DNA of 56,948 bases from Mycobacteriaceae bacterium (GCA_051646185.1 JBOFCS010000055.1:1-56948), one strand, 5' to 3'. Shown: positions 24,642 to 42,189, numbered from the stretch's first letter. The notes: generated by a model from the sequence alone, not told the origin. Numbers and translations are program-made.

Positions 24642-25109
24642 TTTGCTATTCACCTTTTGGCGAGACCTTCTATCGAACTTGCGCTCTGGCGGATTATGCG
24701 AGGTCAGAATATGTTTCTATTCGCCTTTTGGCGAGACCTTCTATTGAACTGGGGGATCATTGTATGACCCGACTGATCCACCAGGGTTTCTATTCGCCTT
24801 TTGGCGAGACCTTCTATTGAACAAGACGGCCCTGTGACGGACGTCGATATTGAGCGGTTTCTATTCGCCTTTTGGCGAGACCTTCTATTGAACAGCAAAC
24901 ACTCTCGGGCTTGCTGAGTTCGGTGCGCGTTTCTATTCGCCTTTTGGCGAGACCTTCTATTGAACGCGCATTAATCTGGTCTGCAAGGTATTTCGTGGTT
25001 TCTATTCGCCTTTTGGCGAGACCTTCTATTGAACTATTCAATTCCCATCTATAGTAAATGTAAGTTTATTTCGTTTCTATTCGCCTTTTGGCGAGACCTT
25101 CTATTGAAC
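24642..25109 (-). CRISPR. CRISPR array 1: 7 repeats (37 nt) / 6 spacers, transcribed on the minus strand
   Basis: Plus-strand repeat GTTTCTATTCGCCTTTTGGCGAGACCTTCTATTGAAC starts at 24713, 24786, 24857, 24929, 24998 and 25073. A degenerate copy (3 mismatches) lies at 24642. Spacer lengths are 34, 36, 34, 35, 32 and 38 nt. Orientation follows from the degenerate repeat at the low-coordinate end, the conserved leader at the high-coordinate end, and a transcribed repeat ending in ATAGAAAC. Confidence 0.95.
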
Positions 25110-25324: not shown

Positions 25325-26530
25325 CTAGCTGGGATGCCCGTTGCGCTTCTTTTTACGACGCCAGAGATTCAATAGCTCAATGAAATCACCTTTGGCTGGT
25401 TGGTCTAAATAAGTTTTGACTCCAGAAACCTTCTTAACTAATTTAGCCCCATCTGGCAACAGTTCAGAATAAAAGACATGGGTAAAAACAATGAATTCAT
25501 TTTTCTCGTTTTGCACTAGTTTAATCCATACCGGGGAAGCACGGCGAAGGCTTTGTTTATTCTTGTCCACGCCCGAAACCATCGCTTTGAATCTGGAACC
25601 TTTTTCGAAATAATTAACCGGCAAACCTAAGCCTGCAACGTCATATCTACGGCCAACTGCCCCAGCCCGAATGCTAGTGATCCATTCTGGACTAAACGAA
25701 TCTTTATTTTGGTGATCATTAGGGGCTTTTCCTAACCGGAAGTTCCTCCAAGAAATTCCTGCTGCATTTAAGACGGTCTCCCAGCTATTCTGATTATTTT
25801 GACTTTCACTTCTGAGCGAGCCACCCCACCATTGATGAGATAGGACTGGAAATTGAGGCAGGGGAAGGTCATCATTAAATTCTTCTCTATTCATTTCACC
25901 CCAGCCTGGGTCTCCCAGTTCTGTAATCCACGGTGGAATAGGATCTTGTTGTAAAGCATTCCAGTCTGGTCTCCAAATTTCGCTACGAGATTGCCAGTTC
26001 CCAGGAAGTGCGCCGACAACTTGAGTGCACTCGATTGCCCCGAACCCCCGGCGGACACGTGCCCCTAAACCCCCATAAATAACCCATGCCCAAATAGCAA
26101 GCATAAGTTGCGAATTGATTTTTTCATCATCGGAAAACCTGAACTCAACGATGAATCGAGATCCTGGATTCACATAAGATCTAGATAACTGCCTTTTACT
26201 TTGATCCCAAAGCCCTTGACCTAAAAGATATTTTATTCCTATTTCAGATGTCCAACGAGGTTCTCTATTGTGAGCAAGACTGGGCTGCGCCCTAACTCTA
26301 ATTGCGATGGAGGAAGGCTTCTTTGTAGAACCAAAAATTGCTTCTTCTGCCTCCCATAGGTCGTTAAGCTCGATAACCCCATGTGCAGCCGCCACCGCAC
26401 GAAACCAATACCGTAAAGCCCCACGAATAGATGGCACCCTAATAGGAGAATCATCTGAATCAGGTCCCGCTTCCGCTCCACCGAATAATGGTGAAACAGT
26501 GGTAAATGTAAATGCTGTCCATGGTTTCAT
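25325..26530 (-). CDS. cmr1: Type III-B RAMP subunit Cmr1
   Basis: 401 aa. N-terminal RAMP signature FTTVSPLFGGAEAG...PSIRGALRYWFRA...IFGS. Second RAMP-like half with a G-rich loop (GGLGARVRRGFG) and RRASPVWIKL. AGGAAG SD. The ATG overlaps the upstream stop (TGATG). Confidence 0.75.
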   Translation of the reverse strand: MKPWTAFTFTTVSPLFGGAEAGPDSDDSPIRVPSIRGALRYWFRAVAAAHGVIELNDLWEAEEAIFGSTKKPSSIAIRVRAQPSLAHNREPRWTSEIGIKYLLGQGLWDQSKRQLSRSYVNPGSRFIVEFRFSDDEKINSQLMLAIWAWVIYGGLGARVRRGFGAIECTQVVGALPGNWQSRSEIWRPDWNALQQDPIPPWITELGDPGWGEMNREEFNDDLPLPQFPVLSHQWWGGSLRSESQNNQNSWETVLNAAGISWRNFRLGKAPNDHQNKDSFSPEWITSIRAGAVGRRYDVAGLGLPVNYFEKGSRFKAMVSGVDKNKQSLRRASPVWIKLVQNEKNEFIVFTHVFYSELLPDGAKLVKKVSGVKTYLDQPAKGDFIELLNLWRRKKKRNGHPS

Positions 26531-27900
26531 CAGCGGCTTCCTCTACTTCGTCGCACTCTACCTAATGGCGCTGTAATCGGCATATCCTGCCACATAATCT
26601 GAACAATTAATCCTGCTGTTAACGACCATCCGGTCATTAACAGCACTACCTTAGCGGGCGCTGCCATCATTTCAGCAGGCATGTCTGGTTCTTGACAAGC
26701 GTCGGAGACCTCTCTTGATTCCCAAACGCTAGTTCCAGGATTATTAAGGCAGTTACCCGCTTCGCCGATTTGTGGGACCACATAAACCAGAACAGGAATG
26801 CTCAGTGCAGCTGCGTACAGGGTAGCTATCCCCCAAACAGCTAAGCCCCTTCCCGCTGCTTTAGGTAAAGATGAACCATGACTGTGACATTCAAAAATTA
26901 TGTAGCACAAAGCAATCACTAATAATACGGCACCCAGTATCCACCCATCCTCAGATTTCCACCATCGAGGAGTTAAAGAAATAAGCAAAGCAAGACCTAC
27001 GGCAATGGTTGCTGGGATACGTAACAGAGAAATTTTGAACCACTTCTCACCAAAATAAAAACCAAGGGACACCGCGAAAATTGCCAACGGGATCAAGGCG
27101 GCAATACAGTGAAATCTATTAGTAAAAAAGAGCGTAATAAGACTTAAAGCCGTGAGAGGTCCGATAAGTAACGCCAAGACAGAATCTCGTTTTGATGAAA
27201 ATTGTATTCGCGTTGCTTCCCACACCGCACCTCTTGGCAACCAGTGTTCTTCAGCAATCTTTACCGAAATTCTTTCATGCTCCATTTTATTCAGACTTGA
27301 ATTTACATCATCACTTTTTGATCCGAGTACAAGCAACTCATCTTTTTTCATTTTTTGAGCCAATTCTGTGGAGATATTCTTTGGGTGAATCCAGCTTATG
27401 GCTTTTAGCTCGGATTCAATCCAATCTTTACCTTCACCGCGAATAGCTAACCAGGGGTCGTCTTCCCACGACGAAAGAATTGTGAGCCAACAATCCCGAG
27501 CATTTCGAGCACATTGTTGTAAAGTTTTTTTACCACTTGACATCTGGCCAAGTGGTCCCGATGCGGCTAAACCAACCTCAGGTAAAGATTCCATCCGCAA
27601 GGGGAGCGTCCAAACCAGGAAGCTAAATCGTGCAGACTTTGAGAATAACTCTTTCGGAATAAAATTGCTGTCAGCATTATCTAACCAACGGGCAAAATGC
27701 ATTAATTCAGTAATAACGTTTTCATCTGATTTTTGGTTCTTCAGTAAGACCATAGGATCTTCAAGAGCTAAAGCTAAATGCTCCTTGTCCATGCCAGTTC
27801 CAACTTCGGGTATACGCACGTCTTCCGAAGACTTACTATCTGAGATTCTCAGAACACTTTTAACATAGTGATGTGTATTTAATTCTTGCTCGCTAATCAT
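26530..27900 (-). CDS. Type III-associated membrane protein: ~238-aa unrecognised cytoplasmic N-domain + 6 TM helices (candidate effector)
   Basis: 456 aa from ATG 27900, which overlaps the CARF stop as ATGA. Hydrophobic segments at about aa 240-260, 263-284, 291-310, 319-337, 352-376 and 415-437. Positive-inside pattern (SSKRD, EKWFK..R, PKAAGR, C-terminal RVRRSRGSR) gives N-in/C-in topology. I recognise no catalytic or family motif. Confidence 0.7.
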   Translation of the reverse strand: MISEQELNTHHYVKSVLRISDSKSSEDVRIPEVGTGMDKEHLALALEDPMVLLKNQKSDENVITELMHFARWLDNADSNFIPKELFSKSARFSFLVWTLPLRMESLPEVGLAASGPLGQMSSGKKTLQQCARNARDCWLTILSSWEDDPWLAIRGEGKDWIESELKAISWIHPKNISTELAQKMKKDELLVLGSKSDDVNSSLNKMEHERISVKIAEEHWLPRGAVWEATRIQFSSKRDSVLALLIGPLTALSLITLFFTNRFHCIAALIPLAIFAVSLGFYFGEKWFKISLLRIPATIAVGLALLISLTPRWWKSEDGWILGAVLLVIALCYIIFECHSHGSSLPKAAGRGLAVWGIATLYAAALSIPVLVYVVPQIGEAGNCLNNPGTSVWESREVSDACQEPDMPAEMMAAPAKVVLLMTGWSLTAGLIVQIMWQDMPITAPLGRVRRSRGSR

Positions 27901-28799
27901 ACGATACTCAACAGTATAATTCCGAGATCTGAAATTCTTTTCGGTGGGCCTTCCTGCCAGCATAGCCCTAACAGCTTATTGTTACGAGTATTATAATCCT
28001 CGGGCATATCTATTGTACCGTTTCTGACAGTAACCTCTGAAAGTTTTTTCATATCTTCAGCTAAGTTGACAAAGCTTCTTATCGGAATAAGAACTCTCTT
28101 AGAGAGATCCAAACTTGTTTTATTTAAGCCTGATTCATGAATAACTTGTGCAGTGATCTTCCAATCACGATGCTCGTCAAGCATTGTTTTAATACCTTCA
28201 GCAATAGTAATAAAGAAGGGCATCATCGCCTTAAACCCTCCACCTAGATGGAAAACTATCTGGCCTTCTCCCTCCTTTCCTATATTGTTTCGGACACTGG
28301 TTTCTATTTCACTACCCATTTTTCCGAGTTGGAAAAATATCTCTTTCGATAATTCTTGACTCAGGTCGAGTCTTGAAACACGACAAATGTATACCTGCCC
28401 TGGTTGTATTGAAGATAGACTTCCTGAGTTATCTTCTTCTCCATCAATATAATTGATGGGTTTGCCCTCAGCGTATTTTGCCGCAACAAACACAGCTGCT
28501 CTAAGCCCGGAAGGGGTATCACTAGCTATGAACACATAGGCATCCTTTTCCCGCTCTTCTGAGTCTCTTGTCTCAATGTAAATTGAAGACCACTCCGCAC
28601 AAACTTCAGGATTATTTTGTAGTTCGGTTATTTCTAGACTAATCTTCGGATCTAGCTCATCAAGATTGAGTAGCCCCTCACGCACAGTATTGCTCAAAAG
28701 CTTTCGCACATCACTCTTTGCATCAATTAAATTCAATAAACTTAAAGAATCATCATTTTGAATAGAAAGTCCCACTGGGACAACATGAATAGTGAACAT
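27897..28799 (-). CDS. Stand-alone CARF-domain protein (no recognisable effector domain)
   Basis: 300 aa from ATG 28799 (AAGGGGA SD; overlaps the cmr6 stop as TGATG). CARF hallmarks: MFTIHVVPVGLS (beta1 + G-x-S), CAEWSS, VFIASDTPSGLRAAVFVA, IVFHLGGGFKAMMPF. No R-x4-6-H HEPN motif and no HD or PD-(D/E)xK. The ORF-track N-terminal extension lies inside cmr6. Confidence 0.7.
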   Translation of the reverse strand: MFTIHVVPVGLSIQNDDSLSLLNLIDAKSDVRKLLSNTVREGLLNLDELDPKISLEITELQNNPEVCAEWSSIYIETRDSEEREKDAYVFIASDTPSGLRAAVFVAAKYAEGKPINYIDGEEDNSGSLSSIQPGQVYICRVSRLDLSQELSKEIFFQLGKMGSEIETSVRNNIGKEGEGQIVFHLGGGFKAMMPFFITIAEGIKTMLDEHRDWKITAQVIHESGLNKTSLDLSKRVLIPIRSFVNLAEDMKKLSEVTVRNGTIDMPEDYNTRNNKLLGLCWQEGPPKRISDLGIILLSIV

Positions 28800-29617
28800 C
28801 AGCTTTCCCCTTTCTCGACTGTGCAGTATCCATATCCGGCAGCAGTTTTTCCGCCAAGCCCAAAGTAGCCACAGCCACCTTCGACCCATGAGTAGAAGAT
28901 TTCCACATCTTCTTTCGTCCCACTCACCCACGTTGAGTAGCTTCCACCGTGTACTGCCAGAAACTGAACAGGAACTGGTTCATAATATTCTGCCGGAGGG
29001 CTTTTCACACCACCGTCAGCGTTTCCTTCATTGTAGTACGGGACAACATGCGGGGTTAGCACATCAACTACAATTTTTGGACGGGATTCAGGGTAGGCAT
29101 CTAAAATAGTTATTGATCCCCTACATCCTGTCATACTTACACTTGCATTATTTCGATCTTCCTGGTTTGCAGCGAAACCAAAGATCCTTGTTCTCAGTTC
29201 TACATCAGCACTACATTCACGAGCATAAGCAGCTGCTACCCCCTTTATTGCTGTTGCCGGGATATAAGGGAAACCGTAGGGCGAAGAAAATGATAAATCT
29301 GTTTCCTGCACTGACTCACCACCATGCCCAACGACCATCCGCCACATCGGCTTAATAATAATTTCTAAGCTAGAATATTTTTCTTGCTGGGCAATGTTTT
29401 TTGCCAATAATTTTCTCCGATCAGTAAGTGAAGAGAAAAAATCATCGGTAAGATTCCGGGTTTGCTCAGTAACCGATTGAAGGTGTTCTTGTTTCTCTCT
29501 TGAATCGTCCGGGCCAAGCCAAAGTCGATGAAAAAGCAACGCCTGATTCAGATTTTTATTTTTTATCTTGTCATCCACATTATCAAGGCGGGAAAGCACA
29601 CCATACCTTTGGCTCAT
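28799..29617 (-). CDS. cmr6: Type III-B RAMP subunit Cmr6
   Basis: Start ATG 29617 overlaps the cmr5 stop (ATGA). Motifs GFPYIPATAIKGVAAAY, RIFGF, VLTPHVVPYY, and C-terminal G-rich FGLGGKTAAGYGY. Confidence 0.85.
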   Translation of the reverse strand: MSQRYGVLSRLDNVDDKIKNKNLNQALLFHRLWLGPDDSREKQEHLQSVTEQTRNLTDDFFSSLTDRRKLLAKNIAQQEKYSSLEIIIKPMWRMVVGHGGESVQETDLSFSSPYGFPYIPATAIKGVAAAYARECSADVELRTRIFGFAANQEDRNNASVSMTGCRGSITILDAYPESRPKIVVDVLTPHVVPYYNEGNADGGVKSPPAEYYEPVPVQFLAVHGGSYSTWVSGTKEDVEIFYSWVEGGCGYFGLGGKTAAGYGYCTVEKGES

Positions 29618-29997
29618 CCCTGCTGCCCCTTTTCTTCTACTGTGCATCTGGCATCAGCAATTTTTGATAGCCACTGGCAAAACATCTTAGCTCTCGCTTC
29701 GGCAACTCTTTGCTGTTGCCGTTCTGCCCCAATGAGCGATCCCAGCAGTCCATTTCCATCAGCTCCTGCCTTATACTGAATTCCCGCCTGCTCGCAGGCA
29801 TCTTTCAATACTATGGTTGCCACTCGCACATATTCTTCTTTGTCTTTTTTTGATAACAAAAAGGCACAGCTTGCTGCTAATCCGCTCGTCTGTATGCTCG
29901 CCGGAAGTGCCCTCAATCTAGTTCTTAATACTGAATTAACCTCTTGCCCAAGTGCATTTGACGCAGCAGCTGCTAAATTAGAATCCAAGCGCGTCAT
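29614..29997 (-). CDS. cmr5: Type III-B small subunit Cmr5
   Basis: 127 aa, helical. LPASIQTSGLAASCAFLL and FCQWLSKIADA match the Cmr5 pattern. The ATG overlaps the cmr4 stop (ATGA). Confidence 0.7.
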   Translation of the reverse strand: MTRLDSNLAAAASNALGQEVNSVLRTRLRALPASIQTSGLAASCAFLLSKKDKEEYVRVATIVLKDACEQAGIQYKAGADGNGLLGSLIGAERQQQRVAEARAKMFCQWLSKIADARCTVEEKGQQG

Positions 29998-31022
29998 GCT
30001 AACCACCTGTACTCCCGCTTAGCGCTGCCAGTACCACCTTGTCTCCCTGCACCAGGCTTTGGCACCGGTTTAGGTTTGGCCTGAGCTGTAGCGCTTCCCG
30101 TTTCTTGTTCAGGGACTGCTGGCCTAGGCTCCGCACCTTGGTTTGTACTAAAAATTTTCTCAATATCTTCTGCTTTATGTATCCGGCACCAAAATATGCC
30201 TTTACCAGTTGATTCATCCCCACCAAGTTGAAAAACCTTGCCATTTAATATTTTTTCTAACAAATCGAGATGTTTTTTTTCTCCCGAAAGCACTGATACT
30301 AGAATGGTTTCTGCTGGAAGGTATTCTGAATAAAAAGGTCCGTGCGCTACCTGCTTAGTTTCTTCTTCAAGCTGAATCCGAGCCACAACATCTGTTCCGT
30401 GATTGGCAAGTTCTGAAAAATCACCTGCTTCAACAATAACCACGTCTTCTTCAATCTTTTTGCGTGAGAAGGTAAATTCCTCATTACATGGAAAAACAAA
30501 TTTTGATAAGGAATTACCCAGATTTCTAACAGCATTTTCTGTGCTTACACTGACCAAGATTGGACCAAAAACTTGTTTTCCTTTCCACCCTTCAGTGCCA
30601 ATTCCTCCGTTAATACTTTTTGTATAAACACTTTTCAATGTTGAAGTATCAGCGCCGATAATCCGCGCCTTGCGCGCTAGCCTGGCAAGCAACTGAACTG
30701 AGGTGACCCAGGCAAAAAGCCGATCAAGTGATGCAGCTGGCATCGCTAGAAGCTGGGCATCCCCAAAACTTACAGCTCCTCTGGTTAACCTACTGTCAGT
30801 TTCCCCTGGTGGCTTTGAGCCAAAAATTGCTTCATCTTGTTCCGAAGTGAAACCCGAAGAACGAGCATGATCGCGTAGTGCCCCTTTAAGTGACTGACCC
30901 CAAATTAACGGTAGCCCAGTTCCAGCTTCCCGCTGAATAGGGAGATCAATGCTGGACATGGCTCCTGAACCTCCCGCATGGATAGGGGTTTCAGCAAAAA
31001 GTACTAGCAATCTATGTTCCAT
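29994..31022 (-). CDS. cmr4: Type III-B backbone RAMP / target-RNA slicer Cmr4
   Basis: LLVLFAETPIHAGGSG...SSIDLPIQRE (catalytic Asp context), WGQSLKGALRDHAR, IFGS, QLGGDESTGKG. Start at ATG 31022 (TAATG overlap with the cmr3 stop), or alternatively ATG 31028. Confidence 0.9.
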   Translation of the reverse strand: MEHRLLVLFAETPIHAGGSGAMSSIDLPIQREAGTGLPLIWGQSLKGALRDHARSSGFTSEQDEAIFGSKPPGETDSRLTRGAVSFGDAQLLAMPAASLDRLFAWVTSVQLLARLARKARIIGADTSTLKSVYTKSINGGIGTEGWKGKQVFGPILVSVSTENAVRNLGNSLSKFVFPCNEEFTFSRKKIEEDVVIVEAGDFSELANHGTDVVARIQLEEETKQVAHGPFYSEYLPAETILVSVLSGEKKHLDLLEKILNGKVFQLGGDESTGKGIFWCRIHKAEDIEKIFSTNQGAEPRPAVPEQETGSATAQAKPKPVPKPGAGRQGGTGSAKREYRWLA

Positions 31023-32053
31023 TACCATCTCCCTGTCAAGACAACACCAAAACCTGAATTTACAATTCCTTCAGAAGGATTCAATAATTTTTCGTGATGA
31101 TTATTGGCCCACGCCTGTGCTAAATCTTTATCTCCAAAATCGACGTAAAGCACCGTTCCTGCCGGAAGCGCCCACTGAAGTTGCCGACTCTCCGAGAAAT
31201 TTTTGCGCACGGACGCGGTGGCTATCGGCTGGGGACCAGTACAGCTCATCACGCATAGCGTCGCATCTTCTGGTGACCAAAATTTTTTATCGACCAGACC
31301 CGGAGTTGCTAGATAAATAGCCACTCTCCCGCTATCGAACTGCGGAACCTCGATATGCGGGACTTTGTCGCGCATATTTGCTAGACGAACATGAGCTATG
31401 CGCCCTCTACCGCCTAAAGGAACAACTGAGTTTTTAATTTCCACTGTATCTGAGGAAACACAGCCCAACATGAAAGCTAACTTATCTGCACCACGTAAAT
31501 GTGTTGTTGCGTACAGCATTGATTCCATTGCCGTACCTTCAAATTCGCCAGAATAATGCCGCGCTAGGCCAAGGCGAGGTTCCGCTGACCATCCTGGGCT
31601 TTCTTTATGCCTTTGTTTTATCCACTTTGTGTCTATTTTCTCCCCGAAGCGGATTTCCCCTTCATTTGTTAACCAGTTTTCCATCGCACCGGTGCGAATC
31701 CAACCGCCTAACGTTTTTCCTTCACCAACTGTTTCATGGCTGAACCGATATTCTGAATCTAAGTCATTTCGTTGTGATGTCGAGCGCTCTTCGAGTGTTA
31801 GACGACGAAATTCGGTATCGTCTTTTACGATGTCGACTGGTGTTGGATAGTACGCATTTCCCTCTACAACGACGGTCGGGCCAATGATCATCTCCCCTAC
31901 CTCTTTACCTAATGCGGTGTGTAATACACCTCCGAAGGTACTGGGAGGTGGGGTGATTGGATTTGATATATTCGCTGACCCAGCATCAAAAGGTCTACCA
32001 TCACGAACCATTGCTGTGTCCAGTAGCTCAACTACTACCCATGTTGTTGTCAT
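31022..32053 (-). CDS. cmr3: Type III-B subunit Cmr3
   Basis: N-terminus TTWVVVELLDTAMVRDGRPFDAGS is typical of Cmr3. G-rich loop PLGGRGR. The ATG at 32053 overlaps the cas10 stop (ATGA); alternative ATG at 32059. Confidence 0.85.
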   Translation of the reverse strand: MTTTWVVVELLDTAMVRDGRPFDAGSANISNPITPPPSTFGGVLHTALGKEVGEMIIGPTVVVEGNAYYPTPVDIVKDDTEFRRLTLEERSTSQRNDLDSEYRFSHETVGEGKTLGGWIRTGAMENWLTNEGEIRFGEKIDTKWIKQRHKESPGWSAEPRLGLARHYSGEFEGTAMESMLYATTHLRGADKLAFMLGCVSSDTVEIKNSVVPLGGRGRIAHVRLANMRDKVPHIEVPQFDSGRVAIYLATPGLVDKKFWSPEDATLCVMSCTGPQPIATASVRKNFSESRQLQWALPAGTVLYVDFGDKDLAQAWANNHHEKLLNPSEGIVNSGFGVVLTGRW

Positions 32054-33864
32054 TGGCATTCCTGAGAAAGAAATCGGGCAATAAGCACGGCAGGGAGCGG
32101 CTGTAGAAACTTTCCATTTGACCGCTCTTGCTCTGCAAGCTTGACCAAAGATTTTGCCGATAAGTCACTTCCACCGTGACGGATGGTTAACCGGTGAATT
32201 TCAGCTTTCAGAGTGTCCCAGAGATCTGGGTTATCTTCCGCCGCTAAGCTTTGCATTTCTTTGTTATTGGCTTCTATATCTGCGGCAAGACGCGGCGACA
32301 AAGCATTTGCTCCACTGGGGCTTACGGCCCGCAATAGATCAGCGGCATTACCACCGTCTGAATTTATATTCCATGGTTGTACCGTTCTTGCTCGTTCACC
32401 TCCCCGTCGAATAGCAATCACAGCTAACGCATCTCGGTTTTGGGTGGGAGATATCTGAGCATTTTTTGCTTCATTCAGTGCTTCCCTGACTGATTCAAGA
32501 GCTAATCGTAGCGGGTAAGACATGTGTACGAACACAATAGCGGTGGATGCTGTTACACCTTTTCCCTTGTTAGCTTTCTGCCATAACATGTTTTTGTCAA
32601 CATGTTCGGCAAGAGACTTTCGTAACGTTTCTGCCAAACTTAAAGCCGTTGAGGCTGGGCTGAAAGCCAAAAAATCATCACCCCCGGAATAAATCACCGA
32701 GGAACAAAATTCCGATTTTCTTGCGATTTTCTTCTGCTCTTGAGCCAGTTCGTATAATTGGAAAGCGGCTTCACTCTGCTCATTCAGAGTCCAAGAGTTA
32801 AGGGCCTGACCTAGTCGATCAATATCTTGAGCGATGATAGCGTAATATGGCGAAAGATCAAGATTAATATGGATTTTGGCTAGTTTAAGGATTTCTTTTG
32901 ACGCTTCTCTACCCTTAGCGACAAGTTTATCGTTAATACCTTCATATTCTTTTGCTAATGTTTCTACCCGCCAAAGTTCGGGATATAACCAATCTGCGCA
33001 ATTTGCGAATGAAGTACGACTCCCAGCTGAGGGAGTAGCTCCTGAATCATTCAGGACAGCAATAACTTCTTCTAATTGATTAACCGGACTAGTCAGCGCT
33101 TTGCCGAGATCCTTGTTTTCCGTTTGCTCTAACTTTGCCAGAAAAGCCGCCGAAGCAACGGCACGAGTGGATGAAAATTTTCCTTTAGTGTTTTTCCTTT
33201 TCACCCAGCCAGCTGCGGATAAGTTTTCATCACTCTCATACCTTTGCAGTAACCTTATTTTGGCCGCCGGAATTGCTGGTAGTCCAGCAGATTGAGAGCA
33301 GAGCACTACTTGTTTTTCTATGAATGGGTCAAAAACCTTACTACGCTTTCGAGCGGTCAATGCTCGCTGAGCTGCCTGCCATAAATCTGCGTAGTTACCT
33401 GCGCTTCCTTCCACAGTAATCCAGGAAATATCTGGAAAGCCAGGGGTTTTTATTGGCGTATCTTCTACAAAAACTTCTGCCAACTTATTTTGCCAAAGCT
33501 GTGTCATTTTTTCTACGCATTTTTCGGCAATCGATGCTCCCTGCCCTACATTACAAAGGTAGATGATTTTATTTGTTACAGAAGCACTATCAACCATTTT
33601 GGGACTTGGGAAAACCCGATAACCCTCGTTTTCTGTCACTTCTTCAGCGGCTACCCAGGCTAGTTCTTGCAGAAGCAAGCTCGCATTTGCGACATCGCGT
33701 GTGGTGCGTGATTCGACAATAAATTTTTGAACACCCCCCAGGGCAATAATGCCCATTTCTATCTTCTCAGTAGAAGAGTAACCAGACGCCAAAGCCCCAA
33801 CTCGATCCCGCTGCACAGCCTGCACACCCTCCGTTGACCTCAAAAGACTACGAAGCGCAGACAT
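32050..33864 (-). CDS. cas10: Cas10/Cmr2, cyclase-type palm domains, no HD nuclease domain
   Basis: 604 aa. It opens almost directly with the palm-1 strand GIIALGGVQKFIVESRTTRDVANASLLL. Palm-2 has AIIAQDIDRLG and an intact GGDD (VIYSGGDDFLAF; GGDD codons at 32674..32685). No H-D dyad or extra N-terminal domain. The alternative start at ATG 33756 would make it even shorter. Confidence 0.9.
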   Translation of the reverse strand: MSALRSLLRSTEGVQAVQRDRVGALASGYSSTEKIEMGIIALGGVQKFIVESRTTRDVANASLLLQELAWVAAEEVTENEGYRVFPSPKMVDSASVTNKIIYLCNVGQGASIAEKCVEKMTQLWQNKLAEVFVEDTPIKTPGFPDISWITVEGSAGNYADLWQAAQRALTARKRSKVFDPFIEKQVVLCSQSAGLPAIPAAKIRLLQRYESDENLSAAGWVKRKNTKGKFSSTRAVASAAFLAKLEQTENKDLGKALTSPVNQLEEVIAVLNDSGATPSAGSRTSFANCADWLYPELWRVETLAKEYEGINDKLVAKGREASKEILKLAKIHINLDLSPYYAIIAQDIDRLGQALNSWTLNEQSEAAFQLYELAQEQKKIARKSEFCSSVIYSGGDDFLAFSPASTALSLAETLRKSLAEHVDKNMLWQKANKGKGVTASTAIVFVHMSYPLRLALESVREALNEAKNAQISPTQNRDALAVIAIRRGGERARTVQPWNINSDGGNAADLLRAVSPSGANALSPRLAADIEANNKEMQSLAAEDNPDLWDTLKAEIHRLTIRHGGSDLSAKSLVKLAEQERSNGKFLQPLPAVLIARFLSQECQ

Positions 33865-33954: not shown

Positions 33955-34781
33955 AGATCTCTTTCTTTGCAGGCGAGACCTTCTATTGAACCCGCGGCAA
34001 CCTCATAGTGAACTGCCACCCCAGGTTTCTATTCGCCTTTTGGCGAGACCTTCTATTGAACAACCCACTTAGAGCAGTCGCAACTCAACGATGCGCGTTT
34101 CTATTCGCCTTTTGGCGAGACCTTCTATCGAACTGGGAAGCGAATCTCAAGCAGGCCGTCTTTGATGGTTTCTATTCGCCTTTTGGCGAGACCTTCTATC
34201 GAACTTCGATTCTTAGGGGTACCGCGTCTCAGTCTCCAGTTTCTATTCGCCTTTTGGCGAGACCTTCTATCGAACGCAGCATCCGAAATGGATGGATACG
34301 CCGAATCGACGTTTCTATTCGCCTTTTGGCGAGACCTTCTATCGAACATTAAAGAAGAGGGTTTGGCCGCAGCGCAATTCCCTGTAGTTTCTATTCGCCT
34401 TTTGGCGAGACCTTCTATCGAACTCGGGCGACGGCGCAAGGCTCCCACGGGCGGGCCTGTTTCTATTCGCCTTTTGGCGAGACCTTCTATCGAACGCTGA
34501 TGATGCTCGCGCACAGCGGGATTACCTCGGGTTTCTATTCGCCTTTTGGCGAGACCTTCTATCGAACGTTTCGATTGAAGGGGACGCACCACTGTCGTTT
34601 GTTTCTATTCGCCTTTTGGCGAGACCTTCTATCGAACTCGGTAGATGTCGATGTAGGGCTAACTGATTCTGCTGTTTCTATTCGCCTTTTGGCGAGACCT
34701 TCTATCGAACCCAAATGGTGGCATCCCCGCGCCCCCAGTTAGGTGTTTCTATTCGCCTTTTGGCGAGACCTTCTATCGAAC
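33955..34781 (-). CRISPR. CRISPR array 2: 12 repeats (37 nt) / 11 spacers, transcribed on the minus strand
   Basis: Plus-strand repeat GTTTCTATTCGCCTTTTGGCGAGACCTTCTATCGAAC starts at 34097, 34168, 34239, 34311, 34387, 34459, 34531, 34601, 34674 and 34745. A T-variant (..CTATTGAAC) lies at 34025, and a half-degenerate terminal repeat at 33955. Spacer lengths are 33, 35, 34, 34, 35, 39, 35, 35, 33, 36 and 34 nt. Confidence 0.95.
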
Positions 34782-34989: not shown

Positions 34990-35274
34990 TTAGAAAACAG
35001 CCCAAAACAACACTGGCTCCCCCGGCGATGCCTGACCAGAAAGCCCCTTCAACTCCCAACACGACGCACACTGCCGAGCCACAAAAAATGAATCCGTTTC
35101 CGCATCAATAATCGACTCCACTTCTCTGGTCAATAATGCCAAATCTTTTACCCCAATCGTGCACAGAAAAACGCTGTACTGCAAGCGATTTCCCCATCGC
35201 TGAAGCTTAGCCGCCACTTTAGAACGACGGCCGTTATCAACAATGTCATAAAAGGCTAAAACCGTTAGCGCCAT
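34990..35274 (-). CDS. cas2: Cas2
   Basis: Start ATG 35274 (MALTVLAFYDIVDN..., catalytic Asp in beta1), then RLQYSVFLC. Overlaps the RT-cas1 3' end by 10 nt. Confidence 0.85.
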   Translation of the reverse strand: MALTVLAFYDIVDNGRRSKVAAKLQRWGNRLQYSVFLCTIGVKDLALLTREVESIIDAETDSFFVARQCASCWELKGLSGQASPGEPVLFWAVF

Positions 35275-37145
35275 GCTAACCCCGTCCACCGACACTCCGG
35301 GTCTGCCACCGTCGCAGCCAACCTCTGCGCTTGCCGATACACATGTCGGCGAAGACTCCCAGAAAAATCTGGCAGCGCCCCACCTGTCATTTGCAACATC
35401 CGGTGCTCATACCCCTGAGTCAGCACCCGCTTCCCCTCTTTGGTCAGCCACACCCCCGATTCACCATCACCGTGGTACCCATGCTCCGCCGTCAGTGCAC
35501 CCTTACGGGCCAAACTCAACACCACCTGATCTACCACCATCGGACGGAACTCCTCCATCAGGTCCAAAGCTAAACTCGGCCGTCTATCGGAATCTGAATG
35601 CAAAATACCAATACTCGGATCTAAACCTGCTGAGAAAAGCGCAGAAACACACTCCCCCAACAAAATTGCATAACCATAACTCAAAGCAGCATTCACCACA
35701 TCTAACGGCGGCCTACGCGACCTCCCAGAAAATTCACACCACAGCGGCAGCAGAAGCCCAAACGCAGTAAAGTACGTTTTCGCCGCCGCACCTTCACAAC
35801 CCATCAGCTCCGGCACCGAGGTTGCTTGGCGAATGTGCCCCTGTAAACCTCGCATCTGTACCAAACCTGCCCGAATATCTTCTGCATGTTCTCGGCGTCC
35901 AAACCTCTGCACCAAAGAAATTTGATGCCCAATTTTTGCTTCAACCATTGCCGAAGCCAACAAAATTTGGTGCTGCACATTATCTTCAAGTGCCAGCTGA
36001 GTCCGCAACCTCGCCAACCGTTGCGGAGAAGACCCGGAAATAAACTGCCCCTGATAGGAACCGCGACGCGAAAGAAAGACCATTTCCACATCGGAATCAA
36101 AAGCCCACGCGCGCAACCCTGAAGACACACTTACCGACCCAAAAGTAACAACCCGAGAAATATGAGAAGCCGGAACTTCCAACAATAGTTCCTCATCTTT
36201 GGACTCCACCGTTACCTTACCGCGAGTGGTAGCAATACGGCTTCCTTGCCTCCCCGCATACAACACCCGCTGCACCGAATCATCGACTCGCCCTAAACTT
36301 ATCAGTGGTGGATACCGGGTTCCAAAATCCTCACCCAAGAAGCAAAATCCCTCAGAAAAAGACATAACCTCAGTTTTATCTTCGTCAAGGTTCATACCCA
36401 ATTCCTCCAATGCTTGCGTCGCTATTCGCAGCGCTTCCCAAGCTTCACTTTGTGAGCTACAGACAACAGTAAAATCATCAGAAAACCGCACTACAGGAAA
36501 ACCATTGTCTAACAATTTATTATCTAAATTTGTTAGAACAAGATTGCGTAATAAAGGAAAGAGGGCTGCTTCCTTCGATGGCACAGATACCTCAGAAAGC
36601 CCATCCCTAGTGTGAACTCGCCGTGACAACAAAGCTACGATCACAGCATCAAGAGAGGAATCAGGGAGTATTTGCACCAACATTCGTCGAACAAGAGCGT
36701 AAGCAATAGTGCCAAGACAATCCCACACCTTCGCTTGAAGCACCCACGCTAAACCTTCCTCCCTCAGAGTCACCACTGCCTGCACAGCATCAGCTACAGA
36801 CAAACCTGGCCGATCAGCATACGATGCCACCCCTAGGCATCGGTCCACATACCCGGTGATGCCTTTTAGCACAGCAAGTTCCACTATTGTATCTTGGATT
36901 GAAGGAACCGCTAATACCCGAAAACTACTGTCATGCTTAGGTATCTGCACCTCATGGAAATCATGGGGACGATACGTACCATCACGCAGTTGGCCTGCTA
37001 ATGCGTGCAGCCGCTCACTAGCAGACTCAGCAAACTGCGCTACTGCAACCGAGAATTTTCCTTCAACGCTTTGCCGGGCAAGCAGCTCACCCCAGGCATC
37101 TTCCAACGCTGCACGGCTTGTCACAAGCTCATGCAGCGTTGACAT
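35265..37145 (-). CDS. cas1: Reverse transcriptase-Cas1 fusion (RT-Cas1)
   Basis: 626 aa. The N-terminal ~300 aa is a group-II-intron-like RT (FRVLAVPSIQDTIVELAVL; YxDD box as RFSDDFTVV, FSDD codons 36474..36485; LDEDKTEV). The C-terminal part is Cas1 (VVTFGSVSVSSGLRAWAFDSDVEMVFLSRRGSYQG; GCEGAAAKTYF; GILHSDSDRRPSLALDLMEEFRP). Confidence 0.9.
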   Translation of the reverse strand: MSTLHELVTSRAALEDAWGELLARQSVEGKFSVAVAQFAESASERLHALAGQLRDGTYRPHDFHEVQIPKHDSSFRVLAVPSIQDTIVELAVLKGITGYVDRCLGVASYADRPGLSVADAVQAVVTLREEGLAWVLQAKVWDCLGTIAYALVRRMLVQILPDSSLDAVIVALLSRRVHTRDGLSEVSVPSKEAALFPLLRNLVLTNLDNKLLDNGFPVVRFSDDFTVVCSSQSEAWEALRIATQALEELGMNLDEDKTEVMSFSEGFCFLGEDFGTRYPPLISLGRVDDSVQRVLYAGRQGSRIATTRGKVTVESKDEELLLEVPASHISRVVTFGSVSVSSGLRAWAFDSDVEMVFLSRRGSYQGQFISGSSPQRLARLRTQLALEDNVQHQILLASAMVEAKIGHQISLVQRFGRREHAEDIRAGLVQMRGLQGHIRQATSVPELMGCEGAAAKTYFTAFGLLLPLWCEFSGRSRRPPLDVVNAALSYGYAILLGECVSALFSAGLDPSIGILHSDSDRRPSLALDLMEEFRPMVVDQVVLSLARKGALTAEHGYHGDGESGVWLTKEGKRVLTQGYEHRMLQMTGGALPDFSGSLRRHVYRQAQRLAATVADPECRWTGLAWR

Positions 37146-37147
37146 GA

Positions 37148-37873
37148 CTAACCTGCCGCCGCTAAGCGTTGTTGGTCTGTGTTGATCCTGGTGACTCCTA
37201 ATCCTTTGGTGGTGCTACTTCCGATACCAGCAAATTCGGCAAAAGCAAGTAAAGCACCAAACTGTGCTGCCACAGCAGGATCATCACAGGCATAACTCAC
37301 CCGACCCACAAACCCCGATACCATCATCTTCGCCAAAGGCAACACCTGACTACACCCATCAATATCTCGTACCCATAAGTGTTGTGCCGCAGCTTCCCGA
37401 TCAATTTTTATTTGCGGAATCGGCTTAGGGGAAAGCTCATTCCACTTTTCCGAAAGGGAACGGGCCACAGTCCGAGGGTCCGGCCACGGTGACGACCGCT
37501 GCTTATAACGAAAGGTTGTGGGGGTAAGAAAATCTACAGACCACACCTTGGCAACCGGGGCTGACAGAAACTGACCCCATTGAAGTTGTTGCATTACTTG
37601 AGGTTCACCAAGAATTGTTGCTGACTGCGAACCAAAGCGCACAGCACTGTTGGCGGCCACTCGCGAAAGCAACAACTGCTCAGCTTGATTGTTCAGCGTG
37701 CACACTTCAAGCACAGCAACCCCATCAACAACCCGCAACGGACTCACCGACCACGGCTTATGCGAACCCCAATGATCACTGTCTAACCATGCACAAGCAA
37801 CAGCATGGACATAATCGAGCTTTACCAAATCGGGGTCAACCCCACCAACTGGCACTAGCCATCTAGTCAGCAT
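37148..37873 (-). CDS. cas6: Cas6-family crRNA endoribonuclease (divergent)
   Basis: 241 aa. C-terminal glycine-rich loop FAGIGSSTTKGLGVTR is typical of Cas6. Position is 2 nt upstream of RT-cas1. The rest of the sequence is weakly diagnostic. Confidence 0.65.
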   Translation of the reverse strand: MLTRWLVPVGGVDPDLVKLDYVHAVACAWLDSDHWGSHKPWSVSPLRVVDGVAVLEVCTLNNQAEQLLLSRVAANSAVRFGSQSATILGEPQVMQQLQWGQFLSAPVAKVWSVDFLTPTTFRYKQRSSPWPDPRTVARSLSEKWNELSPKPIPQIKIDREAAAQHLWVRDIDGCSQVLPLAKMMVSGFVGRVSYACDDPAVAAQFGALLAFAEFAGIGSSTTKGLGVTRINTDQQRLAAAG

Positions 37874-41199: not shown

Positions 41200-42189
41200 T
41201 CAGTTAATAATATCCACTCGGGTAATGCGCGAAGCCAATACCTCTACGAACCATAAAGTTCCATCTGGTCCAGCTGTAATACCATCTGGCACTCCCAACG
41301 GATCCAAACCAGCTACTTCAGAAATCTCACCTTCAGGGGTAATCTTGCCTACCCGAGAACCCAGGTATTCAGTAAACCAAATGTTGTTATCCGGCCCAAC
41401 TGCCAAAGATACGGGTAAGGCACCAAAAGACAGGCCGACACCAAACTCCGTGACCACACCCTCAGTACTGATTTTTGCTATCCGATTTCCAAAGGTTTCG
41501 GTAAACCACAGATTGCCATCGGGTCCGGAAATAATATTCACTGGACCAGAAAACGGGGTGATGCCCTGAGTGAAGGTAGTAACTTCACCAGTCGGGGTTA
41601 TTCGGCCTATTCCGCCAAATCTCTCGGTATACCAAAGATTTCCATCAGGGCCTGCAACAATATCAGTTGGCATAGCCAACGGGTTCGCACTTAATGGAAA
41701 TTCAGTGACCTCACCTTCGGGAGTAATCCGACCAATACGATTACCAACGGTCTCAGTGAACCATAAATTTCCATCAGGTCCGGCCGCAATGCCAAAAGGC
41801 TGGGCACCAAAGGATATTCCAGCTGAAAACTCAGTGATGTCACCTTCAGGGGTAATCCGGCCAATACGATTACCCAAAAGTTCAGTAAACCAAAGATTTC
41901 CATCCGGGCCAACAGCAATTCGATCCGGGCCACTTAGTGGGCTCAGTCCTGCTGAAAACTCAGTGATGTCACCTTCAAGGGTAATCCGACCAATACGATT
42001 ACCCAAAGTTTCAGTAAACCATAAGCTCCCATCTGGCCCTGTCGTGATAATCGCCGGTGAGCTCAGCGGTGCAAGCGGGTACTTTGTCAGCACCACGTTA
42101 TCTTGAGCTTGCGCAATCGATATTTGAGGTATCACTATGGCACAGACAGCGATACTCACCGTCATTACCTTGGTTACTAAGGTCTTCAT
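41200..42189 (-). CDS. Secreted beta-propeller protein, virginiamycin-B-lyase (Vgb)-like repeats
   Basis: Signal peptide MKTLVTKVMTVSIAVCAIVIPQISIAQA. Seven ~41-aa repeats of the form GPDGNLWFTE..GNRIGRITPEGDITEF. The ATG overlaps the upstream stop (ATGA). Confidence 0.65.
   Translation of the reverse strand: MKTLVTKVMTVSIAVCAIVIPQISIAQAQDNVVLTKYPLAPLSSPAIITTGPDGSLWFTETLGNRIGRITLEGDITEFSAGLSPLSGPDRIAVGPDGNLWFTELLGNRIGRITPEGDITEFSAGISFGAQPFGIAAGPDGNLWFTETVGNRIGRITPEGEVTEFPLSANPLAMPTDIVAGPDGNLWYTERFGGIGRITPTGEVTTFTQGITPFSGPVNIISGPDGNLWFTETFGNRIAKISTEGVVTEFGVGLSFGALPVSLAVGPDNNIWFTEYLGSRVGKITPEGEISEVAGLDPLGVPDGITAGPDGTLWFVEVLASRITRVDIIN

What the first reader, a model, noticed from the sequence alone, without database searches (positions are those of the whole stretch)
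26530..28799. Split CARF sensor + 6-TM membrane protein embedded between cmr6 and cmr1: candidate undescribed cOA-to-membrane effector of a type III-B system
Seen:
- Two genes without any Cmr-subunit features sit inside the effector operon.
- 27897..28799 (300 aa) carries CARF hallmarks (HVVPVGLS, AEWSS, FIASDTPSG, FHLGGGFK). The ~50 residues beyond the CARF fold show no HEPN R-x4-6-H, HD, PD-(D/E)xK or other catalytic motif.
- 26530..27900 (456 aa) has a ~238-aa hydrophilic N-domain I cannot assign. It also has six hydrophobic helices with a clean positive-inside pattern (N-in/C-in, RVRRSRGSR tail).
- The two genes overlap as ATGA. Each is also stop/start-overlapped with a structural cmr gene.

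Established:
- GGDD Cas10 makes cyclic oligoadenylates that switch on CARF/SAVED effectors.
- The membrane-linked type III effectors I know have different architectures from a separate CARF protein plus a large polytopic partner. These are Cam1 (CARF fused to TM helices), Csx23, and CorA with NrN/DEDD partners.

Inference:
- Either the CARF protein senses cOA and gates or activates the membrane protein, giving depolarisation, dormancy or abortive infection.
- Or the membrane protein senses cOA through its own N-domain and the CARF protein is a ring-nuclease off-switch.
- No Csx1/Csm6, Can1/2, Card1, NucC or CalpL-like gene is present, and Cas10 lacks HD. This pair is therefore the only visible signalling output of the locus.
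Basis: partly seen in the sequence, partly recalled or inferred. Interest (0 to 1): 0.9.

Follow-up and report, generated by a model that had tools for sequence, protein, structure and literature searches.

The report
Cam3 membrane protein with CARF partner
The two odd genes inside this type III-B CRISPR operon are a divergent copy of a gene pair already catalogued by bioinformatics (a CARF7 sensor-like protein plus the six-helix membrane protein "Cam3"/Mem_01). Nobody has tested it experimentally, and it is probably the locus's only signalling output.

Summary
On the minus strand, a 300-aa CARF protein (27897-28799) and a 456-aa protein (26530-27900) sit between cmr6 and cmr1. The 456-aa protein has an N-in/C-in topology, a helical cytosolic domain and six TM helices. 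Start and stop codons overlap at every junction.

The pair is not undescribed:
- The membrane protein matches PADLOC Mem_01 (E=1.7e-42).
- It fits "Cam3" of Hoikkala et al. 2024: type III-B, helix-rich N-domain plus 6 TM, always directly downstream of a "Cami1"-annotated gene.

In 55 species-level genomes, all Actinomycetota, the CARF gene lies directly upstream of the membrane gene in all 51 loci where that stretch is held. Of the 47 loci with sequence on both sides, 44 show the full cas10-cmr3-4-5-6-CARF-Cam3-cmr1 order. The other 3 are attached to a different type III backbone.

What I add:
- The partner belongs to the CARF7 clade. Its best structural matches are Cami1 and the Crn1 ring nucleases Sso1393/Sis0811.
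- It lacks the RelE nuclease, so it is not Cami1.
- Cas10 has GGDD and no HD.
- No other effector is detectable in the window.

Hence the pair is the likely cOA (probably cA4) output at the membrane. Sequence cannot settle whether the CARF protein gates Cam3 or merely degrades the signal. I found no experimental study of it.

The parts
37148..37873 (-). cas6
   Evidence: Pfam CRISPR_Cas6, E=1e-20
35265..37145 (-). RT-cas1 fusion
   Evidence: Pfam Cas_Cas1 2.7e-79 plus RVT_1 3.2e-12
34990..35295 (-). cas2
   Evidence: 43% identity (E=2e-26) to the Pfam-annotated Cas2 of locus L002
34025..34781 (-). CRISPR array A: 11 repeats of 37 nt, GTTCGATAGAAGGTCTCGCCAAAAGGCGAATAGAAAC
   Evidence: 0 matches expected by chance
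32050..33864 (-). cas10/cmr2, 604 aa, GGDD at residue 394, no HD domain
   Evidence: Pfam Cas10-Cmr2_palm2 and Cmr2_N; TIGR02577; motif check
31022..32059 (-). cmr3
   Evidence: Pfam Cas_Cmr3, 3.2e-34
29994..31028 (-). cmr4
   Evidence: TIGR02580, 3.2e-57
29614..30006 (-). cmr5
   Evidence: Pfam Cas_Cmr5, 1.6e-10
28799..29647 (-). cmr6
   Evidence: TIGR01898, 2.8e-30
27897..28799 (-). CARF7-clade protein, 300 aa. CARF domain about 1-235 plus a roughly 65-aa C-terminal domain that is unassigned (by position it corresponds to the HTH of Sis0811). No RelE. Predicted cOA-binding residues S12 and G187-G188-x-K190.
   Evidence: PADLOC PDLC01938, 3.9e-32. Foldseek hits to Cami1, Sso1393 and Sis0811. 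Conservation across 57 partners. No RelE.
26530..27900 (-). Cam3/Mem_01-family membrane protein, 456 aa. Cytosolic helical N-domain 1-240, six TM helices (241-436), conserved cytosolic tail WQDMPITAPLGRVRRSRGSR.
   Evidence: PADLOC Mem_01, 1.7e-42. Hydropathy and topology. AF2 secondary structure. 260 family representatives. Conservation by region.
25325..26530 (-). cmr1
   Evidence: TIGR01894, 4.1e-20
24642..25109 (-). CRISPR array B: 7 repeats, the terminal one degenerate

Best explanation

**Shown.**
- The locus is a complete type III-B system whose Cas10 keeps the cyclase motif and has no HD nuclease.
- The 300-aa protein is a CARF7-clade CARF with its ligand-pocket residues under strong selection and no effector domain.
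- The 456-aa protein is a 6-TM protein (predicted N-in/C-in topology) of the Mem_01/Cam3 family.
- The two genes are always adjacent, in the same order and usually overlapping. They travel together even onto a different type III backbone.

**Inferred.**
- Target-RNA binding makes Cas10 synthesise cOA. This is most likely cA4, which Crn1 and Cami1, the characterised CARF7 relatives read about here, use.
- A dimer of the CARF7 protein binds it and, as a separate subunit, switches on Cam3.
- Cam3 then perturbs the membrane (depolarisation or leak), causing growth arrest or abortive infection.
- The conserved Ser12/Lys190 pocket may also slowly cleave cA4, making the module self-limiting.
- In short, it would be a split version of the fused CARF-TM effectors.
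For: **Cyclase-only system.**
- GGDD and no HD in the window Cas10.
- 44 of 44 related Cas10s keep GGDD/GGDE.

**No other output.**
- No other effector or CARF/SAVED protein among 52 non-cas ORFs of the window.

**CARF7 identity without an effector domain.**
- PADLOC CARF7 profile and structural matches.
- The CARF+RelE profile PDLC01033 matches only its CARF half: positions 6-151 of 294 for the window protein and 1-143 of 294 for L049.
- Ten partners hit only Cas_APE2256 in Pfam.
- The 51 partners extracted from the loci come out at about 240-340 aa, mostly 296-337 aa. Typical Cami1 is 360-407 aa.

**Ligand pocket under selection across 57 partners.**
- G10 49/49, S12 46/49, E69 98%, D94 98%, G188 100%, K190 as 47 K and 10 R.

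**Obligate linkage.**
- CARF lies directly upstream of Cam3 in all 51 loci where the upstream stretch is held.
- The same holds when the search starts from the CARF side.
- No replacement by another ring-nuclease family was seen.
- Three loci carry the pair beside a type III-D/H-like system with fused RAMPs instead of cmr genes.

**Shared history.**
- Both genes co-evolve with the cmr genes, r 0.73-0.85.

**Conservation in Cam3.**
- It is highest in TM3-TM6 and the cytosolic C-tail. Invariant charged or aromatic residues are R91, R102, R135, W138, R294, E337, H341 and R351.
Against: - Nothing here shows the two proteins touch. The partial correlation of CARF and Cam3 distances, after removing the shared locus history, is only 0.10, against 0.40 for cas10-cmr3.
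- No CARF-Cam3 fusion exists among 161 family representatives.
- The CARF protein has the architecture and the Ser/Lys residues of stand-alone Crn1 ring nucleases. It could therefore simply be an off-switch.
- Membrane effectors are often paired with signal-degrading enzymes: Cam1 with ring nucleases in 81% of loci (PMC12409355).
- Both AF2 models are low confidence (pLDDT 61 and 64).
- No multimer prediction was possible.
- Hoikkala et al. themselves suggested Cam3 may be an accessory protein.
- The ligand and the membrane activity are entirely inferred.
Confidence: 0.45

Rival explanations
1. Cam3 is a self-sufficient effector. It senses the Cas10 product through its own cytosolic N-domain, as Csx23 does with a non-CARF domain. 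The CARF7 protein is a Crn1-type (Sis0811-like) ring nuclease that degrades cA4 and protects the host from a dangerous membrane effector.
For: - The best structural matches include the CARF7 "large stand-alone ring nucleases" Sso1393 and Sis0811, with alignments spanning about the full length of both proteins.
- The N-terminus aligns so that S12 equals the catalytic S12 of Sis0811, and GGxK supplies the Lys.
- There is no excess CARF-Cam3 co-evolution and no fusions.
- The Cam3 N-domain has invariant Arg, Trp, Phe and His residues (R91, F94, R102, R135, W138, H219) that would suit a nucleotide pocket.
- Precedent of membrane effectors linked to signal-degrading enzymes (PMC12409355).
Against: - Linkage is complete and always to the same CARF family across very divergent loci (mean distance about 1.5) and across two type III backbones. 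No swap to Csx16, Csx20, Crn3 or similar occurs, unlike Cam1.
- Ser/Lys conservation is not diagnostic: non-cleaving TsCard1 keeps them too (PMC9638899).
- K190 is Arg in 10 of 57 partners.
- Most of the Cam3 N-domain is poorly conserved (PMC11229360).
- It has no detectable similarity to any known nucleotide-binding domain.
Confidence: 0.3
2. Cam3 is a non-toxic membrane anchor or scaffold that localises the Cmr complex and/or the CARF protein at the membrane. This is the anchoring idea of Shmakov et al. 2018. The real output would lie elsewhere in the genome or be target-RNA cleavage alone.
For: - The genes are embedded among structural cmr genes rather than at the edge of the operon.
- Partial distance correlations of CARF-cmr5 (0.38) and Cam3-cmr3 (0.32) are in the range of true Cmr contacts.
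- The anchoring proposal appears in 10.1101/270033.
Against: - The pair also occurs beside a non-Cmr type III backbone.
- An active cyclase conserved in 44 of 44 loci, together with a conserved CARF pocket, implies a signalling output.
- The mirror-tree values are near the noise level.
Confidence: 0.1
3. The CARF protein with its small C-terminal HTH-like domain is a cA4-responsive regulator. Cam3 holds or releases it at the membrane, giving a transcriptional rather than a membrane-damage response.
For: - The C-terminal roughly 65 aa end in a conserved ...GL..(x)n..LT..G.. motif.
- In Sis0811 and Sso1393 the corresponding domain is an HTH (PMC9638899).
Against: - The C-terminal domain is modelled with low confidence.
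- It gives no Pfam HTH hit.
- No conserved target gene or operator is evident.
Confidence: 0.07
4. A housekeeping transporter and an unrelated Rossmann-fold protein landed in the operon by chance.
For: None beyond the lack of a Pfam family for the membrane protein.
Against: All 55 species-level loci and all metagenome contigs examined place the pair in type III loci.
Confidence: 0.01

Closest known systems
Cam3 with its adjacent "Cami1"-annotated gene (Hoikkala, Graham & White, NAR 2024, PMC11229360); equals PADLOC PDLC01155 Mem_01
   Same: - Type III-B context.
- A compact helix-rich N-terminal soluble domain plus six TM helices.
- Always immediately downstream of a CARF7 gene.
- No fold relative found.
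- Actinobacterial distribution: Thermobifida and Streptomyces entries appear in their table.
- The window protein matches Mem_01 at E=1.7e-42.
   Different: - The window copy is at most 37% identical to any relative and is alone in its 50%-identity cluster.
- It sits in a genome of about 49% GC, whereas all 55 genomic relatives are Actinomycetota.
- The partner lacks RelE, so the label "Cami1" does not fit, and neither does the inference that Cam3 is merely accessory to it.
- I could not run the authors' own Cam3 HMM.
Crn1 large stand-alone ring nucleases Sis0811 and Sso1393 (CARF7 plus HTH)
   Same: - CARF7 clade and similar length (270-300 aa).
- The N-terminal MxxxHVxxVGxS motif with Ser12.
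- The GGxK lysine.
- A small C-terminal domain.
- Top Foldseek matches (E about 1e-5).
   Different: - Sequence similarity is not significant (E=2.3).
- The C-terminal fold is not established.
- Activity is untested.
- Crn1 enzymes are not obligately paired with a membrane protein.
Cami1 (CARF-RelE, PDB 8PHB/8PHJ)
   Same: - CARF7 domain.
- Best Foldseek hit (E=4.7e-6).
- cA4 is the expected ligand.
   Different: - There is no RelE domain: the protein is 300 aa against 406 aa.
- The CARF+RelE profile matches only over its CARF half.
- There is no Pfam toxin hit.
- It cannot cleave ribosome-bound mRNA in the way Cami1 does.
Fused CARF-TM effectors (Cam1; also Cap1 and Chp1 in recent preprints)
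   Same: A cOA sensor coupled to a membrane-perturbing part. The expected outcome is depolarisation or growth arrest.
   Different: - Sensor and membrane parts are separate polypeptides here.
- Cam3 has six TM helices and a large cytosolic domain of its own.
- There is no sequence or fold similarity.
Csx23, and CorA with NrN or SAM-AMP lyase
   Same: - Membrane effectors of type III systems that sense the signal without a CARF domain.
- CorA is tightly linked to an enzyme that degrades its signal. This is the precedent for rival explanation B.
   Different: - No homology: there are no CorA or Csx23 hits.
- The partner here is a CARF protein, not NrN or a lyase.
- The signal is presumably cA4 rather than SAM-AMP.

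Membership tests
Type III-B (Cmr) CRISPR-Cas | Cas10/Cmr2 together with Cmr1, Cmr3, Cmr4, Cmr5, Cmr6 and a CRISPR array | tested here: met
Type III-B (Cmr) CRISPR-Cas | Cyclase-competent Cas10 (GGDD) | tested here: met
   GGDD at residue 394 and no HD. Enzymatic activity not testable.
CARF superfamily, CARF7 clade | Significant match to CARF7 profiles | tested here: met
   PDLC01938 at E=3.9e-32. Pfam Cas_APE2256 at 22.1 bits is below the 24.8 cut-off for the window protein. Homologues score 27.1 and 28.0 bits.
CARF superfamily, CARF7 clade | Rossmann-like fold closest to CARF7 structures | tested here: met
   Foldseek hits to Cami1, Sso1393 and Sis0811, E 5e-6 to 5e-4, probability 0.99-1.00. 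TM-scores are only 0.33-0.44 because the model has pLDDT 64.
CARF superfamily, CARF7 clade | Conserved ligand-pocket motifs: a Ser/Thr after beta-1, and GGxK | tested here: met
   S12 in 46 of 49, G188 in 57 of 57, K190 as 47 K and 10 R
Cami1 (CARF-RelE) | C-terminal RelE-family nuclease domain | tested here: not met
   The CARF+RelE profile is matched only at positions 6-151 of 294 and 1-143 of 294. No RelE or ParE Pfam hit in 10 partners. Length is 300 aa against 360-407 aa.
Crn1 ring nuclease (large stand-alone type) | CARF7 domain with the Ser12/Lys169-equivalent residues | tested here: met
   These residues are also kept in non-cleaving Card1, so they are not diagnostic.
Crn1 ring nuclease (large stand-alone type) | C-terminal HTH domain | tested here: inconclusive
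   The C-terminal roughly 65 aa are modelled at pLDDT about 50 and give no Pfam HTH hit.
Crn1 ring nuclease (large stand-alone type) | Metal-independent cleavage of cA4 to A2>P | not testable with these tools
   Needs biochemistry.
Cam3 / Mem_01 | Helix-rich N-terminal soluble domain followed by six TM helices | tested here: met
Cam3 / Mem_01 | Encoded in a type III-B locus immediately downstream of the CARF7 ("Cami1"-annotated) gene | tested here: met
   The window. The CARF gene is directly upstream in all 51 related loci where that stretch is held, and 44 loci carry the full cmr set.
Cam3 / Mem_01 | Sequence match to the family profile | tested here: met
   PADLOC Mem_01 at E=1.7e-42 over residues 80-448. 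A relative, L049, scores 3.6e-118. The Cam3 HMM of Hoikkala et al. (Figshare) was not available, so identity of Cam3 with Mem_01 rests on description, context and taxa.
Cam1 / fused CARF-TM effectors | CARF and TM helices in one polypeptide | tested here: not met
   They are separate genes. No CARF signal in 161 Cam3-family proteins.
CorA / Csx23 membrane effectors | Homology to the CorA or Csx23 families | tested here: not met
   No Pfam, NCBIfam or PADLOC hit other than Mem_01. No PDB sequence or fold match.

The most novel reading that the evidence does not exclude
The CARF7 protein, which has no effector domain of its own, is a free-standing cOA receptor that gates a separate polytopic membrane protein. 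This would be the first split (two-polypeptide) sensor/effector pair in type III CRISPR signalling, with a new membrane-effector fold and built-in signal degradation. The module can plug into different type III backbones.
Probability: 0.35. Interest if true: 0.75.

Novelty: new member of a known kind. Interest (0 to 1): 0.45.

Why it matters
Cam3 is one of the few type III CRISPR ancillary families that is recurrent (about 260 clusters at 50% identity) yet has no known fold, ligand or activity.

If the neighbouring "Cami1" is in fact a RelE-less CARF7 protein, these systems have no known effector at all. The CARF7-Cam3 pair then becomes the obligatory output rather than an accessory.

That makes a concrete question testable: can a CARF protein activate a separate membrane protein in trans, or does Cam3 carry a new cyclic-nucleotide-binding domain?

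The window supplies a highly divergent copy from a genome of about 49% GC. This is useful for defining which residues are truly invariant and for heterologous expression.

Tried and rejected
**Searches that found nothing**
- Pfam and NCBIfam on the membrane protein, and Pfam on 40 family members, gave only two chance-level hits: DUF3704 and SLATT_fungal, E about 0.005-0.007, each in 1 of 40.
- Foldseek of the membrane model against PDB gave a best E of 1.1. The model has pLDDT 61, so this is uninformative.
- The PDB sequence search with the family profile gave nothing significant.
- Rfam and tRNA scans of the window were empty.
- Literature searches for an experimental study of Cam3 or this pair found none in the held library.

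**Limited or blocked searches**
- Word-indexed homologue search found no relatives for the CARF protein alone and only 4 with a profile. Partners had to be taken from loci.
It was redone with 5 sequences, giving pLDDT 64.
- The Makarova 2020 CARF paper is not held.
- Provenance and taxon of the window could not be established. No exact-sequence contig is on record, and the five window proteins found are singletons at 90% identity.

**Leads followed and dismissed**
- A possible second CARF protein in the window, a PADLOC "CARF3" hit, traced to 9870-10565(-). Only residues 159-205 match the C-terminal end of the profile, i.e. the HTH of a likely response regulator, not a CARF domain.
- The three apparently cmr-less "orphan" pairs are actually beside another type III subtype.
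- Mirror-tree analysis showed no excess CARF-Cam3 co-evolution (partial r 0.10). The method is crude and does not decide the matter.
- A search for CARF-Cam3 fusions found none.

Full report
**1. Observation**

The window carries a complete type III-B CRISPR-Cas locus on the minus strand. In transcription order:

| Gene or feature | Coordinates |
|---|---|
| cas6 | 37148-37873 |
| RT-cas1 | 35265-37145 |
| cas2 | 34990-35295 |
| CRISPR array, 11 repeats | 34025-34781 |
| cas10/cmr2 | 32050-33864 |
| cmr3 | 31022-32059 |
| cmr4 | 29994-31028 |
| cmr5 | 29614-30006 |
| cmr6 | 28799-29647 |
| first gene of the finding (CARF) | 27897-28799 |
| second gene of the finding (membrane) | 26530-27900 |
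| cmr1 | 25325-26530 |
| CRISPR array, 7 repeats | 24642-25109 |

The ATGA overlap between the two genes and the TGATG overlaps with cmr6 and cmr1 are real. All quoted motifs are present.

Hydropathy gives six TM helices: 241-259, 265-283, 290-308, 320-338, 357-375 and 418-436. The cytoplasmic loops and tail are basic, and the 376-417 loop is acidic and cysteine-bearing. This fits an N-in/C-in topology.

Cas10 has GGDD at residue 394 and no HD.

**2. What the two proteins are**

*The 300-aa protein.*
- It matches the PADLOC CARF7 profile PDLC01938 (E=3.9e-32) and, weakly, Pfam Cas_APE2256.
- An AF2 model (pLDDT 64, pTM 0.71) finds Cami1 (8PHB, E=4.7e-6) and the Crn1 ring nucleases Sso1393 (3QYF) and Sis0811 (7PQ3) as its best PDB neighbours.
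- According to PMC9638899, Sis0811 and Sso1393 are CARF7-plus-HTH "large stand-alone ring nucleases" with catalytic S12/K169.
- The window protein's N-terminus aligns so that its S12 corresponds to Sis0811 S12. GGGFK supplies K190.

*It is not Cami1.*
- The CARF+RelE profile is matched only over its CARF half.
- Ten family members hit nothing but Cas_APE2256 in Pfam.
- There is no R-x4-6-H motif.
- The 51 partners extracted from related loci come out at about 240-340 aa, mostly 296-337 aa. Typical Cami1 proteins are 360-407 aa.

*The 456-aa protein.*
- It has no Pfam or NCBIfam family.
- It has no PDB relative by sequence or by (low-confidence) fold.
- It matches PADLOC PDLC01155, [quoted passage not shown], at E=1.7e-42.

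**3. Relatives and context**

A word-indexed search found 12 homologues at about 35% identity. An exhaustive HMMER search found 260 cluster representatives, 63 of them at E<=1e-30. The window protein is alone in its cluster.

Nine metagenome and MAG contigs show the order cmr6, a roughly 300-aa CARF-like gene, the 6-TM gene, cmr1, and then cas6, RT-cas1 and cas2. The same order is found when starting from the CARF protein.

A scan of one genome per GTDB species returned 55 loci, all Actinomycetota: Pseudonocardiaceae, Nocardiopsis, Micromonospora, Streptomyces, Thermobifida, Frankia and others. I scored six-frame ORFs with HMMs built from the window and its closest loci.
- All 51 loci that hold the stretch upstream of the membrane gene have the CARF gene directly upstream of it.
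- Of the 47 loci with sequence on both sides, 44 show the full cas10-cmr3-cmr4-cmr5-cmr6-CARF-membrane-cmr1 order.
- Eight further loci are cut off on one side and show part of that order.
- The remaining three loci lack cmr genes. They lie beside a different type III system with Cas10h and Cas5_IIIh profiles, fused multi-RAMP Cas7 proteins and Csx25.

So the pair is a portable module. The CARF partner of one of these three loci matches PDLC01938 end to end (1-298 of 301, E=6e-77). That profile therefore is this partner family.

**4. Literature**

Hoikkala, Graham & White (NAR 2024, PMC11229360) defined "Cam3".
- It occurs in 12 type III-B loci.
- It is always immediately downstream of the gene they annotate as Cami1.
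- The function is called "enigmatic", and Cam3 "may be an accessory protein".

Their Cami1 table lists Thermobifida halotolerans III-B proteins of 315 and 323 aa without any Pfam hit. It also lists a Streptomyces cyanogenus III-B protein of 316 aa with a weak APE2256 hit at residues 87-219. That is the signature of the partner family studied here. The same table also holds RelE-less archaeal proteins of 237-321 aa, among them a 277-aa Sulfolobus entry matching Sso1393 in length and Pfam domain.

Shmakov et al. 2018 had already flagged uncharacterised membrane proteins stably linked to type III loci and proposed membrane anchoring.

I found no experimental work on Cam3 or this pair in the held library up to autumn 2026. 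Recent membrane effectors (Cam1, Csx23, Cap1, Chp1, the Panoptes CARF-TM) are sensor-plus-TM fusions in one polypeptide, and I found no similarity to them.

**5. Mechanism**

*Shown.*
- The cyclase motif is kept in 44 of 44 related Cas10s. An HD dipeptide near the N-terminus appears in only 4.
- The CARF pocket residues are under strong purifying selection in 57 partners: G10 49/49, S12 46/49, E69 and D94 98%, G188 100%, K190 as K or R.
- Nothing else in the window resembles an effector. The single "CARF3" hit is the HTH of a likely response regulator at 9870-10565.
- Both genes have evolved together with the cmr genes (r 0.73-0.85), and faster than them.
- Cam3 conservation is concentrated in TM3-TM6 and the cytosolic tail (W437, D439, P441, T443-L446). 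The N-domain has a few invariant residues: R91, F94, R102, R135, W138 and H219.

*Inferred.*
- The pair is the cOA output of these systems. The ligand is probably cA4, the ligand of the characterised CARF7 relatives Crn1 and Cami1.

*Favoured reading (0.45).* The CARF7 dimer is the receptor and switches on Cam3 in trans. The pocket perhaps also cleaves cA4, making the module self-limiting. My main argument is the invariant, exclusive pairing across large divergence and across two type III backbones. A mere off-switch would be expected to be lost or swapped, as happens for Cam1.

*Main rival (0.30).* Cam3 senses the signal itself, and the CARF7 protein is a Sis0811-like ring nuclease. Three results support this:
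- the Crn1-like architecture of the CARF protein;
- the low partial CARF-Cam3 distance correlation (0.10, against 0.40 for cas10-cmr3);
- the absence of fusions.

Ser/Lys conservation cannot discriminate between the two, because non-cleaving Card1 keeps both residues.

*Less likely.* Anchoring or scaffold roles, and a transcriptional role for the CARF protein.

**6. Verdict**

The finding is real and well observed, and its functional inference is reasonable. It is a new and unusually divergent member of a pair already catalogued (Mem_01 / Cam3 with a CARF7 partner), not an undescribed system.

The useful additions are these:
- The partner lacks RelE, so the published "Cami1 plus accessory Cam3" reading does not fit this family and the pair is the sole candidate output.
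- The family is much larger than the 12 published loci: about 260 clusters, and 55 species.
- It also attaches to a III-D/H-like backbone.
- A defined set of invariant residues is now available for mutagenesis.

Interest is moderate (0.45). It would rise to about 0.75 if a split CARF-to-membrane gating mechanism were demonstrated.

Noticed in passing
L045:8021-20248; L049:1073-11068; L052:3576-11044: Three genomes (Nocardiopsis ansamitocini, Marinitenerispora sediminis, Marinactinospora rubrisoli) carry the CARF7-Cam3 pair beside a different type III system instead of cmr genes. That system has PADLOC Cas10h and Cas5_IIIh hits, 650-950-aa fused multi-RAMP Cas7 proteins and Csx25. The L045 Cas10h has AGDD (twice) where GGDD is expected.
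   Followed up: partly
L063:9569-12749: One uncultured Actinomycetota locus has two tandem Cam3-family genes, both weak matches (E=2e-31 and 5e-26), between the CARF gene and cmr1.
   Followed up: no
whole window (1-56948): The window is about 49% GC, and the five of its proteins found by exact look-up are all singletons at 90% identity. All 55 genomic relatives of the pair are Actinomycetota. The flanking genes include MMPL, an F420H2-dependent quinone reductase domain and a luciferase-like monooxygenase. The source taxon could not be determined, so either a low-GC or deep-branching host or horizontal transfer is possible.
   Followed up: partly
window:9870-10565 (-): A 231-aa protein hits the PADLOC "CARF3--CARF" profiles (E=2e-8), but only through residues 159-205 against the C-terminal end of the profiles. 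That region is an HTH, probably of a response regulator. This false positive could be mistaken for a second CARF protein.
   Followed up: yes
window:3619-4398 (+): A 259-aa protein matches the PADLOC mad2 profile (methylation-associated defence, E=1.9e-14) over residues 85-208. It may be only the ordinary Methyltransf_4-type methyltransferase that Pfam finds somewhere in the window, but I did not check that the two hits are the same ORF.
   Followed up: no
window:41200-43118 (-), tandem repeat 41698-42024: Two adjacent genes (329 and 310 aa) lie here, with 129-bp internal tandem repeats. One ORF of the window hits Pfam Vgb_lyase (2e-131) and these are my guess for it, but I did not map the hit to an ORF. 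They appear unrelated to the CRISPR locus.
   Followed up: no
L001:1428-3819; L002:14009-17570: Two Pseudonocardiaceae loci share neighbours outside the cmr operon: a 526-561-aa HTH_31 protein and a PCMT-type methyltransferase. L001 also has a 2H/LigT-like phosphoesterase (2_5_RNA_ligase2) next to it, which could act on 2',3'-cyclic phosphate products. The window has no equivalent.
   Followed up: no
44 related loci: After removing the shared locus history, distance matrices still correlate for CARF-cmr5 (0.38), CARF-cmr4 (0.30) and Cam3-cmr3 (0.32). These values are similar to known Cmr contacts, while CARF-Cam3 reaches only 0.10. It may be noise, but it hints at contacts with the Cmr complex.
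   Followed up: no
PMC11229360, supplementary sheet 'cami1': The published Cami1 set includes proteins too short to carry RelE: Pyrobaculum 237 aa, Sulfolobus 277 aa, Thermobifida 315 and 323 aa, Streptomyces 316 aa. The category is therefore broader than CARF-RelE, and counts of Cami1 co-occurrence may be inflated.
   Followed up: partly
window:24642-24678: The repeat of array B furthest from cmr1 is degenerate (3 mismatches), as expected for the old end of an array. Array B repeats differ from array A repeats by one base (GTTCA versus GTTCG).
   Followed up: no
A5 family members: One of 40 Cam3-family proteins gives a marginal Pfam hit to SLATT_fungal (E=0.007), the SMODS/SLOG-associated 2TM effector domain. 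This is at chance level for 40 searches. It is recorded only because SLATT domains are predicted pore-forming effectors of nucleotide-signalling conflict systems.
   Followed up: no
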